A program made the position numbers. Positions 35,301 through 38,300 of a stretch of DNA of 45,010 nucleotides are shown piece after piece. Source of the DNA: a virus (taxonomy: Duplodnaviria; Heunggongvirae; Uroviricota; Caudoviricetes); the IMG/VR virus record IMGVR_UViG_2917870735_000003. One strand, given 5' to 3'. Positions within the stretch are counted from its first letter, which is position 1. Each line of letters begins with the position of its first letter.

Positions 35301-38300
35301 GAATGAGGTTAAATCTTACTTTGGTTCTCCTGATGCTGTTTCATATACTGACAGTGGAAACGAGATCTGGAAGTACGCCTTTGCAAAAGTAAAAGTTAAT
35401 GGCACCACTTTTATTCCATTCTATGGATTATTCCATAATGGAACGAACGGTACGAAAAAAGAACTTACTATTCTTTTTAACGATGACACGATTAAGAAAT
35501 ACACAATGTCAGAAACCCAAATAAACTCGAAATCAGGTTGGGCTGACTGATAATCATACCCGGCAACCGCGCCGGGTTTTCTTTTCCTCCCCCTCATAAC
35601 TCATACCGTCCAAAAAACCACCACACCTCACTTCAGTTATCGCTATGCGATGCAAGTCACAAAATAAATCCATCCTAAATACAACCAGTTATATTTAAAA
35701 TAACCGACAAAACAACTTTTGTTGTTGACGATAAAACAACTATAGTTTTAAATAAATTCATCGCAACAACACAACGATACGGCAACCACCTGTTTCACCG
35801 TTGCGATGACCGCTTAGATCCGCAGTTTGAATTTCAGCAGGCTCCGGGGAGTGCGAGGGGTGAAACGGACGCGTGAACGTCGGTGTGACCAGCTGAAATC
35901 AACTCAACATTTCATACCTTAGTCGCTTCAACGAGGCGGCTTAGTTATGACAACCGGCGGCCATCCACCGCCTGAATACGCGCAGAAGTCTTTATATGTT
36001 CAGCAGCCCAGCTTACGGGCAGGAGTTTTTATGGTTCATCAACATTACGGAACGCAGACCGTTAATCGCGGTGCGGTCATGCCAGGAATGCTGGTCAAAC
36101 ACAAAGATGGTACCTGGACTGCATCAGCTAATTTACGCGGACGGCTGTATCTGCATCGCGGCATCGAGCGCACTTATACCCGTGACTTGCTCGTGGAAGT
36201 TTTTCTCGACGGACGCGGCAACGGCCTGAATCACTAATCCCCTTTCCTGTTTTCCTAATCAGCCTAGCCTTTCCAGGGCAATAGTTTCACAGCCATTTTC
36301 AGGAGTTCAGCCATGAACGCTTATTACATTCAGGATCGTCTTGAGGCTCAGAGCTGGGTGCGTCACTACCAGCAGATCGCCCGTGAAGAGAAAGAGGCAG
36401 AACTGGCAGACGACCTGGAAAAGGGTCTGCCCCAACATTTGTTTGAATCGCTCTGCATCGATCATTTACAACGCTGCGGGGCCAGCAAAAAAGCCATTAC
36501 TCGTGCATTTGATGACGATGTTGAGTTTCAGGAGCGCATGGCTGAACACATCCGGTACATGGTTGAAACCATTGCTCACCACCAGGTTGATATTGATTCA
36601 GAGGTATAAAACGGATGAGTACAGCACTCGCAACGCTGGCTGGGAAGCTGGCTGAACGTGTCGGCATGGATTCTGTCGACCCGCAGGAACTGATCACCAC
36701 TCTTCGCCAGACGGCATTTAAAGGTGATGCCAGCGATGCGCAGTTCATCGCATTGCTGATCGTCGCCAACCAGTACGGCCTTAATCCGTGGACGAAAGAA
36801 ATTTACGCCTTCCCTGATAAGCAGAACGGCATCGTTCCGGTGGTGGGCGTTGATGGCTGGTCCCGCATCATCAATGAAAACCAGCAGTTTGATGGCATGG
36901 ACTTTGAGCAGGACAATGAATCCTGTACATGCCGGATTTACCGCAAGGACCGTAATCATCCGATCTGCGTTACCGAATGGATGGATGAATGCCGCCGCGA
37001 ACCATTCAAAACCCGCGAAGGCAGAGAAATCACCGGACCGTGGCAGTCGCATCCCAAACGAATGTTACGGCATAAAGCCATGATTCAGTGTGCCCGTCTG
37101 GCCTTCGGATTTGCTGGTATCTATGACAAGGATGAAGCCGAGCGCATTGTCGAAAATACTGCATACACTGCGGAACGTCAGCCGGAACGCGACATCACTC
37201 CGGTTAACGATGAAACCATGCAGGAGATTAACACTCTGCTGATCGCCCTGGATAAAACATGGGATGACGACTTATTGCCGCTCTGTTCCCAGATATTTCG
37301 CCGCGACATTCGCGCATCGTCAGAACTGACACAGGCCGAAGCAGTGAAAGCTCTTGGATTCCTGAAACAGAAAGCCACTGAGCAGAAGGTGGCAGCATGA
37401 CACCGGACATTATCCTGCAGCGTACCGGGATCGACGTGAGAGCTGTCGAACAGGGGGATGATGCATGGCACAAATTACGGCTCGGCGTCATCACCGCTTC
37501 AGAAGTTCACAACGTGATAGCAAAGCCCCGCTCAGGAAAGAAGTGGCCTGACATGAAAATGTCCTACTTCCACACCCTGCTGGCTGAGGTTTGCACCGGT
37601 GTGGCTCCGGAAGTTAATGCTAAGGCGCTGGCCTGGGGAAAACAGTACGAGAACGACGCCAGAACCCTGTTTGAATTCACTTCCGGCGTGAATGTTACTG
37701 AATCCCCGATCATCTATCGCGACGAAAGTATGCGCACCGCCTGCTCTCCCGATGGTTTATGCAGTGACGGCAACGGCCTTGAACTGAAATGCCCGTTTAC
37801 CTCCCGGGATTTCATGAAATTCCGGCTCGGTGGTTTCGAGGCAATAAAATCGGCTTACATGGCCCAGGTGCAGTACAGCATGTGGGTGACGCGAAAAGAT
37901 GCCTGGTACTTTGCCAACTATGACCCGCGCATGAAGCGTGAAGGCCTGCATTATGTCGTGATTGAGCGGAATGAAAAGTACATGGCGAGTTTTGACGAGA
38001 TGGTGCCGGAGTTCATCGAAAAAATGGACGAGGCACTGGCTGAAATTGGTTTTGTATTTGGGGAGCAATGGCGATGACGCATCCTCACGATAATATCCGG
38101 GTAGGCGCGATCACTTTCGTCTACTCCGTTACAAAGCGAGGCTGGGTATTTCCCGGCCTTTCTGTTATCAGAAATCCACTGAAAGCACAGCGGCTGGCTG
38201 AGAAGATAAATAATAAACAGGAGGATATATGAGTCAGGTTGGTAATCATTCATTCGAATTTCCGGCATCGCAAGGTGTACAGGGTGGTACTGTTACACTC

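What the first reader, a model, noticed from the sequence alone, without database searches (positions are those of the whole stretch)
35705..35947. No N gene between the candidate pL and the first early gene
Roughly 200 nt separate the candidate pL/OL (35705-35780) from the first early ORF (35947); no Arg-rich N-like ORF exists in any frame, and cIII, ral and sieB equivalents are missing. This means either N-independent antitermination through a structured RNA (HK022 put-like; a 7-bp inverted repeat TCGCAAC/GTTGCGA sits at 35761-35807) or a deletion that removed early regulation.
Basis: inference. Interest (0 to 1): 0.45.

Follow-up and report, generated by a model that had tools for sequence, protein, structure and literature searches.

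The report
Prophage early-left leader lacking N
The ~190 bases between this lambda-like prophage's leftward early promoter and its first gene (the cell-division inhibitor Kil) are a patchwork untranslated leader with neither an N antiterminator gene nor the terminator that N normally overcomes; it is not an HK022-type put RNA, and the same leader sits unannotated in about 40% of complete E. coli genomes.

Summary
The observation mostly holds. OL/pL lies at 35705-35760. About 186 nt of leader follow (35761-35946). The first gene is a KilR-family protein, then Gam, Bet and Exo, with no N, cIII, ral or sieB.

Two details were wrong. The inverted repeat is 10 bp, not 7. A short Arg-rich ORF does exist (GVKRTRERRCDQLK..., 35827/35860-35922).

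The put reading fails. A covariance model of HK022/HK639 put RNAs scores 56-74 bits on true puts but only 9 bits anywhere in the window. No second copy lies in the pR operon, and the central leader folds no better than shuffles.

Comparison shows a mosaic of three parts:
- a 5' stem-loop;
- about 90 nt related to pL-kil leaders of other N-less enterobacterial prophages;
- from 35910, a conserved element that in phi80, HK225 and HK639 directly follows the tL1 terminator. It comprises a covariation-supported hairpin hiding the SD and AUG of a small ORF, MTTGGHPPP.

Here the terminator stem itself is missing. My best reading is therefore that N is unnecessary for kil-gam-bet-exo because tL1 is absent, and that the leader mainly limits Kil translation.

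The arrangement is lineage-wide: 16 phages and 2210 of 5426 complete E. coli genomes. How these phages pass later terminators remains open.

The parts
35705..35760 (+). OL operators and pL (-35 TTGACG 35725-30, -10 TTAAAT 35748-53, +1 about 35760)
   Evidence: Direct repeats D7 and inverted matches I1/I3 to the OR/pR region. Sequence. Heteroimmune Perceval diverges exactly here and becomes near-identical again from 35761. The hexamer assignment is inference.
35758..35809 (+). 5'-terminal stem-loop of the pL transcript (10-bp stem UCAUCGCAAC/GUUGCGAUGA, 32-nt loop)
   Evidence: Energy -15.4 kcal/mol, z -3.8. One-sided changes stay wobble-compatible. The 5' arm is replaced in 5 of 100 variants. 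Analogous 5' hairpins (GACAAC..GUUGUC) start other pL-kil leaders.
35820..35909 (+). Central leader: a relic related to pL-kil leaders of N-less prophages (kil-proximal box plus the 5' half of a long hairpin); not significantly structured
   Evidence: Local alignment to IMG/VR and Citrobacter/Kluyvera leaders scores 45, against shuffles of 24.4 +/- 4.4 (0 of 300). Alignment A7. Folding z 0 to +1.
35827..35922 (+). Short Arg-rich ORF (31 codons from TTG; 20 from GTG 35860); probably not a conserved coding sequence
   Evidence: Stop TAG in 38% and CAG in 62% of 100 variants; ATG at 35860 in 15%. Both alleles occur in viable phages. Third-codon share of polymorphisms is 6/12, against 71-85% in kil, gam and bet. 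The frame is not kept in homologous leaders (my reading). No homologue outside the family.
35897..35909 (+). 13-mer AATCAACTCAACA, shared with the pR transcript (33886-33874, minus strand) just after boxA; G-free stretch
   Evidence: The only two matches in the window, 0.15 expected. A TCAAC unit is duplicated in 4 of 100 variants. Significance unclear.
35912..35950 (+). Hairpin A of the conserved post-tL1 / kil-leader element; occludes SD (GAGG 35933-36) and AUG 35947
   Evidence: Energy -16.5 kcal/mol, z -4.9. Conserved in HK225, phi80, HK639 and in Enterobacter, Salmonella and Klebsiella phages. 7 of 19 pairs show compensatory double changes across 20 variants.
35947..36237 (+). 96-aa ORF = conserved small ORF (MTTGGHPPP...) fused in frame to the 68-aa KilR core (alternative start ATG 36031)
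   Evidence: phrog_294 matches residues 20-96. The small ORF ends before kil in phi80, HK225 and HK639. Hairpin B GGCGG..CCGCC at 35956-72. Only 2 polymorphic sites in 85 nt at 35947-36031.
33892..33904 (-). rrn-type consensus boxA (CGCTCTTTAACAA) directly after the cro stop, in the nutR position
   Evidence: Single exact match in the window, 0.21 expected with up to 1 mismatch. Present in 46 and absent in 55 of 101 relatives carrying the same pL leader.

Best explanation
The interval is the 5' leader of an N-independent early-left operon.

Shown or read from sequence:
- pL fires at about 35760.
- The transcript opens with a stable 5' stem-loop (35758-35809).
- It continues through about 90 nt with no significant fold. 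This stretch is a truncated relic of leaders found in other N-less pL-kil prophages.
- At 35910 it joins the conserved element that in phi80, HK225 and HK639 lies immediately after the tL1 intrinsic terminator.
- In this lineage the N-bearing segment and the terminator stem are both absent. Only the trailing TTTCATACC remains.

Inferred:
- RNA polymerase reaches kil, gam, bet and exo without any antiterminator.
- The leader's main activity is post-transcriptional. The 5' hairpin is likely to stabilise the mRNA.
- Hairpin A (35912-35950) locks up the Shine-Dalgarno and AUG of the small ORF / long Kil. Production of the toxic FtsZ inhibitor is thereby throttled and coupled to upstream translation or unfolding.

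Passage of the later terminators (39369-87 and 42959-78 on the left, 31190-74 on the right) is not explained by this interval. On the right it may involve the consensus boxA after cro.
For: pL/OL identity.

No terminator-like site between 35761 and 36180 on the + strand.

First gene is KilR, followed by Gam, Bet and Exo.

Window 35910-35975 is homologous to the region just after tL1A in phi80 (L193, between annotated tL1A and tL1B, downstream of annotated N and nutL). It also matches the region after an intrinsic terminator in HK225 and after terminator 1 in HK639. In the great majority of the variants printed (60 of 76, from 116 distinct flanks), the element is preceded by a GC hairpin plus T-run. 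The window type instead has ..CTCAACATTTCATACC.

Hairpin A is supported by thermodynamics (z -4.9) and covariation (7 of 19 pairs). The 5' hairpin has z -3.8.

The central part is similar to Kluyvera/Citrobacter/IMG-VR pL-kil leaders.

The arrangement is shared by 16 phages, among them isolated or induced ones, and by 2210 of 5426 E. coli genomes.

No N-like protein family in the early operons. None is annotated in the curated Perceval genome.
Against: No transcription data exist: promoter, +1 and absence of Rho-dependent termination in the leader are all inferred.

The leader core carries fewer common polymorphisms (0.086 per nt) than the kil-gam spacer (0.19) or third codon positions of bet (0.21). 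Some further constraint is therefore unexplained.

Strong intrinsic terminators lie further down both early operons. Some antitermination function is still expected somewhere.

The Arg-rich ORF and the 13-mer shared with the pR transcript are not accounted for.
Confidence: 0.55

Rival explanations
1. The leader RNA is itself a cis-acting processive antiterminator. It would be a functional analogue of HK022 put but of a different sequence class, modifying RNA polymerase so that it reads through the downstream terminators of the left operon.
For: It sits directly after pL, where putL sits. Identity with heteroimmune relatives begins at about +1. The leader core is about two-fold less polymorphic than neutral sites. 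All common polymorphisms in predicted stems are wobble-compatible (12 further pair types, against 2-6 in slid controls). Strong terminators downstream need to be passed. No N exists.
Against: The put model is negative with working positive controls. The central 35812-35905 folds no better than shuffles. No compensatory change was seen. No second copy lies in the pR operon. The region aligns with only the 5' half of a hairpin present in related leaders. The 5' arm of the first hairpin is replaced in some variants. The whole kil-gam-bet module is equally conserved, so conservation alone is weak evidence.
Confidence: 0.12
2. The Arg-rich ORF encodes a miniature or remnant N. This would be a 20-31-aa arginine-rich peptide, or, in CAG variants, a 125-aa ARM-Kil fusion. 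It would bind nascent RNA and act with Nus factors at the boxA after cro.
For: KRTRERRCDQ resembles the lambda N arginine-rich motif TRRRERRAEK (from memory of the lambda N sequence). It sits at the N-terminus after GTG or ATG 35860, with GGGGAG 9 nt upstream. Relatives annotate the extended ORF. A consensus boxA sits in the nutR position, followed by a 13-mer also present in the pL leader.
Against: The ORF is far shorter than any N and lacks the NusA- and RNAP-binding parts. The stop/readthrough polymorphism (38% / 62%) occurs in viable phages of both kinds. A 5-nt insertion shifts the frame in 4 variants. Polymorphisms are not third-position biased (6/12, against 71-85%). The reading frame is not preserved in homologous leaders. 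No protein homologue was found. No shared boxB-like hairpin was found (my reading). 55 of 101 relatives with the same ORF lack boxA and the 13-mer. The leader itself has no boxA.
Confidence: 0.08
3. The G-free, C-containing stretch 35896-35920 is a Rho loading site. Translation of the short ORF across it, or unfolding of hairpin A, decides whether Rho terminates before kil. This would be a translation-coupled attenuator replacing N/tL1.
For: A 26-nt G-free stretch. The similar G-poor sequence with the same 13-mer lies after cro, where lambda has the Rho-dependent tR1 (tR1 from established knowledge). An ORF with a plausible SD covers the stretch.
Against: Purely inferential; Rho sites cannot be recognised from sequence with these tools. 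The ORF shows no coding signature. The stretch is the most variable part of the leader.
Confidence: 0.1
4. A private deletion in this particular prophage removed N and early regulation, leaving a dead element.
For: This prophage does carry a nonsense codon in replication gene O.
Against: The same junction, at 95-99% identity, is found in 16 phages in GenBank, among them isolated or induced ones, and in 2210 complete E. coli genomes.
Confidence: 0.03

Closest known systems
HK022 / HK639 putL antiterminator RNA
   Same: Position immediately downstream of pL in a lambdoid phage without N. A short local resemblance (GAAACGG..CGUCGG against GAACGG..GUCGG).
   Different: No match to a put covariance model that detects HK639 and other divergent puts. 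No two-stem architecture, no pR copy, and a central region that is not stably folded.
Lambda pL - nutL - N leader with tL1
   Same: A leader of about 200 nt between pL and the first gene, with the translation start buried in secondary structure. A consensus boxA occupies the nutR position of the right operon.
   Different: No N gene, no boxA or boxB in the left leader, and no tL1. The first gene is kil, which in lambda lies well downstream of N and cIII.
phi80 tL1 region (between tL1A and tL1B) and its HK225 / HK639 counterparts
   Same: Window 35910-35975 is homologous: TTTCATACC, hairpin A, UUAUGACAACC, hairpin B and the small ORF MTTGGHPPP.
   Different: In those phages the element follows an intrinsic terminator and an upstream gene block (N in phi80; put plus two ORFs in HK639). 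Here it follows the pL leader directly, and the small ORF is fused in frame to kil.
pL-kil leaders of N-less enterobacterial prophages (Kluyvera, Citrobacter, Silvania, Leclercia; Rac-like YdaS/YdaT immunity)
   Same: kil is the first gene after pL. There is a 5' hairpin at the transcript start. The kil-proximal box GTTCCGCCAGCC..GGGCAAAG is shared, as is part of a longer leader module.
   Different: Only about 60% similar over about 90 nt. The window keeps just the 5' half of the long hairpin and lacks the CCACC..GGUGG structured element found in many of them.

Membership tests
HK022/HK639 put RNA | Sequence and two-stem structure matching the put consensus | tested here: not met
   Model R1 (11 puts, 17 bp). 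Best hit in the whole window, filters off, is 9 bits (E about 1.2), with none in 35700-36050 or 33830-33920. Positive controls score 56, 72 and 74 bits.
HK022/HK639 put RNA | Located just downstream of pL | tested here: met
   The leader starts at about +1 of pL. This is a positional resemblance only.
HK022/HK639 put RNA | A second related copy downstream of pR (putR) | tested here: not met
   No significant similarity between the leader and the pR operon sense strand (score 22, against a shuffle mean of 22.8). No R1 hit there.
HK022/HK639 put RNA | Factor-independent antitermination that depends on the RNAP beta-prime zinc-binding domain | not testable with these tools
   Needs transcription assays.
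Lambda-type N / nut system | N protein (about 100 aa, N-terminal arginine-rich motif) encoded first in the pL operon | tested here: not met
   Only a 20-31-codon Arg-rich ORF, with no coding signature and no homologues. No N family among the early ORFs tested.
Lambda-type N / nut system | nutL (boxA plus boxB hairpin) in the pL leader | tested here: not met
   No boxA with up to 1 mismatch in the leader. No hairpin shared between the pL leader and the cro-cII spacer.
Lambda-type N / nut system | nutR after cro | tested here: inconclusive
   An exact consensus boxA at 33904-33892. No recognisable boxB. The site is absent in 55 of 101 relatives with the same left leader.
Lambda-type N / nut system | Promoter-proximal terminator tL1 that N overcomes | tested here: not met
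   No terminator-like site in 35761-36180 on the + strand. The T-run-adjacent sequence is present without the stem.
KilR / Kil cell-division inhibitor (PF27398, phrog_294) | Profile match of the first ORF | tested here: met
   phrog_294, E 1.2e-38, residues 20-96. Homologues carry PF27398. The local Pfam copy gave no hit.
Post-tL1 kil-leader element (unnamed; phi80, HK225, HK639 and others) | CATACC + covarying hairpin A over SD/AUG + AUGACAACCGGCGGCCAUCCACCGCC (small ORF MTTGGHPPP with hairpin B) | tested here: met
   blastn hits, sequences and covariation in 7 of 19 pairs.
rrn-type boxA / Nus-factor antitermination | Consensus boxA GCUCUUUAACAA in the transcript | tested here: not met
   Not present in the pL leader. 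Present once in the pR transcript, outside the finding's coordinates.

The most novel reading that the evidence does not exclude
This extremely common E. coli prophage lineage uses an undescribed N-independent device encoded in the pL leader. It could be a new class of cis-acting leader RNA, or a 20-aa arginine-rich peptide working with the consensus boxA. Either would carry early transcription through the downstream terminators.
Probability: 0.1. Interest if true: 0.75.

Novelty: new variant of a known kind. Interest (0 to 1): 0.33.

Why it matters
Lambda's N/nut and HK022's put are the textbook routes for early antitermination. This is a third, very common layout, present in about 41% of complete E. 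coli genomes and in the Bievrevirus phages. It has neither device at pL.

The evidence suggests the simple answer for the left operon's first genes: the terminator is gone too. This makes the leader ordinary in mechanism.

Two things remain useful. First, it leaves a concrete, testable question about how such phages reach xis/int and Q. Second, it flags two conserved RNA elements not in Rfam, the post-tL1 hairpin/small-ORF unit and a structured pL leader in related prophages. Both deserve experimental attention.

Tried and rejected
- Rfam scan of 35000-36400 at permissive E-values gave only chance hits. The same was true for a related leader.
- A put covariance model against the window, Perceval, phi80, HK225 and related leaders was negative, with positive controls working.
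- A search for a pR-side copy of the leader by repeats and Smith-Waterman found nothing above shuffles, apart from a 13-mer.
- RNAalifold and pair counting on 60 close variants showed no compensatory changes; the sequences are too similar to decide.
- Looking for divergent homologues through '95-aa' Kil proteins failed, because these turned out to be frameshifted copies of the same sequence.
- tblastn of the Arg-rich peptide found no homologue outside the family.
- A model of the structured 'type ii' leader against the window gave no hit.
- Apparent opposite-strand second copies of the type ii element proved to be chance matches in coding sequence.
- King et al. 2011 on HK639 puts could not be read.
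- A resemblance of GGCGGCTTAGTT to the RfaH ops element was considered by eye and dropped (7 of 12 matches).
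Full report
**What the window is.** The window is a lambda-like prophage whose + strand runs in lambda's leftward direction. The order is cI (34185-34940), a lipoprotein moron with its own terminator (35170-35550, 35558-77), OL/pL, then a 96-aa ORF (35947-36237), Gam, Bet and Exo. Cro (33917-34147), a YdaT/CII-like gene, O and P run on the minus strand. The closest records are Bievrevirus-type phages (Perceval, 4A7, Lambda_4C10, the PhiR series, IdasGreatGrand) at 89-97% identity over the interval.

**Checking the observation.**
- The promoter/operator call is sound. Two 19-nt direct repeats carrying AAAACAAC..GTTGTT lie at 35705-23 and 35729-47. Arms of 26-28 nt are complementary to the OR/pR region at 34168-34217.
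- Reading the sequence against pR and against Perceval gives -35 TTGACG (35725-30), a 17-nt spacer, -10 TTAAAT (35748-53) and a start near 35760. This is inference. The consensus scan did not list the site because its -10 rule needs A at position 2.
- The first sizeable ORF is a KilR-family division inhibitor (phrog_294, E 1e-38; PF27398 on homologues). N, cIII, ral and sieB are indeed absent from this stretch.
- Twenty other early-operon ORFs show no N-like family. The hand-curated Perceval genome annotates no N.
- Two details need correction. The inverted repeat is 10 bp (35758-67 / 35800-09) and forms a hairpin better than every shuffle (z -3.8). Frame 1 also contains a short Arg-rich ORF..GVKRTRERRCDQLKSTQHFIP*, from TTG 35827 or GTG 35860 to TAG 35920.

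**Is it a put RNA?**
- I located HK022 putL and putR from their known positions (just downstream of pL, and between cro and cII) and the residue numbering given in PMC9378689; the sequences themselves were read from the HK022 genome.
- I collected variants, including three divergent ones, from viral contigs. From these I built a covariance model on the RNAalifold structure, which reproduces stems I and II with five covarying pairs.
- With filters off, the best hit in the whole window is 9 bits (E about 1.2), and none lies in the leader or the cro-cII spacer.
- The same model scores the annotated HK639 putL-like RNA at 56 bits and two further puts at 72-74 bits. It finds nothing in Perceval, phi80 or HK225.
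- The leader has no second copy in the pR operon. Its central part, 35812-35905, is no more stable than dinucleotide shuffles (z 0 to +1). Rfam has no match.
- Membership in the put family is therefore tested and not met.

**The Arg-rich ORF.**
- Its KRTRERRCDQ resembles the arginine-rich motif of lambda N (from memory) and sits at the N-terminus behind a plausible SD. I therefore took it seriously.
- Among 100 distinct variants from viral contigs, the stop is TAG in 38 and CAG in 62, which fuses the ORF to Kil; some annotators call this fusion 'Kil'. The start is ATG instead of GTG in 15. Four variants carry a frame-shifting TCAAC duplication.
- Phages of both TAG and CAG types have been isolated or induced.
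- Common polymorphisms fall at third codon positions in 85% (kil), 71% (gam) and 84% (bet) of cases, but only 6 of 12 in this ORF.
- The peptide has no homologue outside the family.
- In leaders homologous at the DNA level from other genera, the frame is not preserved (my reading).
- I rate a functional mini-N as unlikely, at about 0.08.

**What comparison shows.**
- The leader is 95-99% identical in 16 phages and in more than 100 viral contigs. Identity with heteroimmune relatives starts at about +1.
- The whole kil-gam-bet module is equally similar, so this alone says little.
- The informative result came from the 3' end. Window 35910-35975 matches HK225, phi80, HK639 and phages of Enterobacter, Salmonella and Klebsiella.
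- In phi80 the matching segment lies between the annotated terminators tL1A and tL1B, downstream of the annotated nutL and N. In HK225 it follows an intrinsic terminator after three small ORFs. In HK639 it follows 'terminator 1', downstream of putL and two ORFs.
- Across the 76 variants of the upstream flank recovered from viral contigs, the element nearly always begins right after a GC-rich hairpin and T-run (..GCGGCTTTTTTCATACC..). The window type instead reads ..CTCAACATTTCATACC.. with no stem.
- The element consists of CATACC, hairpin A, UUAUGACAACC and hairpin B (GGCGGCCAUCCACCGCC). Hairpin A has 7 of 19 pairs with compensatory double changes across 20 variants, and its outer pairs cover the AUG. 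In the window it spans 35912-35950 with z -4.9.
- The AUG opens a small ORF, MTTGGHPPP.., that stops before kil in phi80, HK225 and HK639. In the window lineage it is fused in frame to the 68-aa Kil core.

**Origin of the left part.** Forty kil loci from other Enterobacteriaceae show that kil directly downstream of pL, with no N, is common. Their leaders begin with a 5' hairpin and carry a kil-proximal box, GTTCCGCCAGCC..GGGCAAAG. Some add a long hairpin module. The window's 35820-35908 aligns to these at about 60% (score 45, against 24.4 +/- 4.4 for shuffles). It includes only the 5' half of that module, which fits its lack of stable folding. The interval is therefore a mosaic: an N-less leader joined to the post-terminator region of an N- or put-type left arm, without the terminator itself.

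**Mechanism I commit to (confidence 0.55).** N is dispensable for kil-gam-bet-exo because no terminator stands between pL and these genes. The leader acts after transcription. The 5' hairpin probably protects the mRNA (inference). Hairpin A keeps the SD and AUG at 35933-49 closed, limiting and coupling synthesis of the toxic Kil; the structure is shown, its effect is inferred. This does not explain how transcription passes the strong terminators at 39369-87 and 42959-78 (the first follows an inserted 354-aa gene), or the tR2-like site at 31190-74.

**The pR side.** An exact rrn-type boxA sits right after cro. It could recruit Nus factors without N, by analogy with rrn operons and CRISPR arrays (the paper PMC7665894 was listed but not read). 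However, 55 of 101 relatives with the same left leader lack it.

**Residual doubts.** The leader core has about half the neutral polymorphism density. All common changes in predicted stems are wobble-compatible. A 13-mer is shared with the pR transcript. These observations keep a cis-RNA or Rho-attenuator role alive at about 0.1 each.

**Limits.** The variant sets were fetched with exact-match anchors, so variation under the anchors is invisible. The covariance-model E-values are rough. No expression data were available.

**Verdict.**
- The put interpretation is not supported.
- The 'deletion' interpretation is right as evolutionary history but wrong as a defect.
- The layout is ordinary in mechanism and very widespread: 2210 of 5426 complete E. 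coli genomes, unannotated.
- Interest is modest. It rests mainly on the open question of later antitermination and on the two conserved RNA elements, absent from Rfam, noticed along the way.

Noticed in passing
window 32280-33299 (minus strand): Replication gene O carries an in-frame stop (K170*..ESGK*SLPK..) relative to PhiR26_1, with 998 of 1020 nt identical and no indel. This prophage copy is probably replication-defective.
   Followed up: partly
window 33892-33904 (minus strand); 42524-42535 (+): An exact rrn-type boxA, CGCTCTTTAACAA(T), lies directly after the cro stop. It is followed by the 13-mer AATCAACTTAACA, which recurs in the pL leader. A one-mismatch boxA (GCTCGTTAACAA) lies in pL sense about 430 nt before the terminator at 42959-78. 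BoxA and the 13-mer are present in 46 and absent in 55 of 101 relatives.
   Followed up: partly
L199, L207, L219, L221, L237-L356 (e.g. L207 3262-3345): A conserved structured RNA of about 65-95 nt sits immediately after pL in many prophages; several of those read run straight into kil with no N gene between, and others into different first genes. It has three helices: CCACC/GGUGG, GGC/GCC and CCGAC/GUCGG. Four pairs in the third helix show compensatory change. It occurs in at least 120 IMG/VR contigs with many different immunity regions. It is not in Rfam, is not hit by the put model, and is absent from the window. It is a candidate new pL leader RNA.
   Followed up: partly
window 35910-35975; L005 3490-3560; L193 8475-8415 (minus strand); L195 1480-1552: The post-tL1 element combines a covarying hairpin over SD/AUG with a small ORF whose first nine codons (MTTGGHPPP, a triple-proline stretch) are nearly invariant at the nucleotide level and contain hairpin B. 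In HK639 hairpin B is annotated as a terminator. The function is unknown; it may be a translational switch for kil.
   Followed up: partly
L365 6152-6300; L366 8420-8566 (minus strand): In two viral contigs a bona fide put RNA (72-74 bits) is followed directly by the CATAC-hairpin A-small ORF element, with no genes or terminator between. This is a put-bearing counterpart of the window's layout.
   Followed up: no
window 35761-35909: This leader occurs at 95-99% identity in 2210 of 5426 complete E. coli genomes, including O104:H4 C227-11, O157 and ST131 strains. RefSeq annotates no feature under it.
   Followed up: yes
window 35899-35908: The pentamer TCAAC is tandemly repeated twice here and three times in 4 of 100 variants. 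This is a small length polymorphism in the most variable part of the leader.
   Followed up: no
window 38229-39387 (+): A 354-aa gene (phrog_7901, unknown function; contains a DGQHR motif) is inserted after exo/orf60a and has its own strong terminator at 39369-87. Perceval lacks it. It places an intrinsic terminator inside the left operon.
   Followed up: no
window 35999-36026 versus 35833-35860: The kil-proximal box (GTTCAGCAGCCCAGCTTACGGGCAGGAG) has a diverged second copy inside the leader (TTTCAGCAGGCTCCGGGGAGTGCGAGGGG). This is consistent with the leader having been assembled from two kil-upstream regions (my reading).
   Followed up: no
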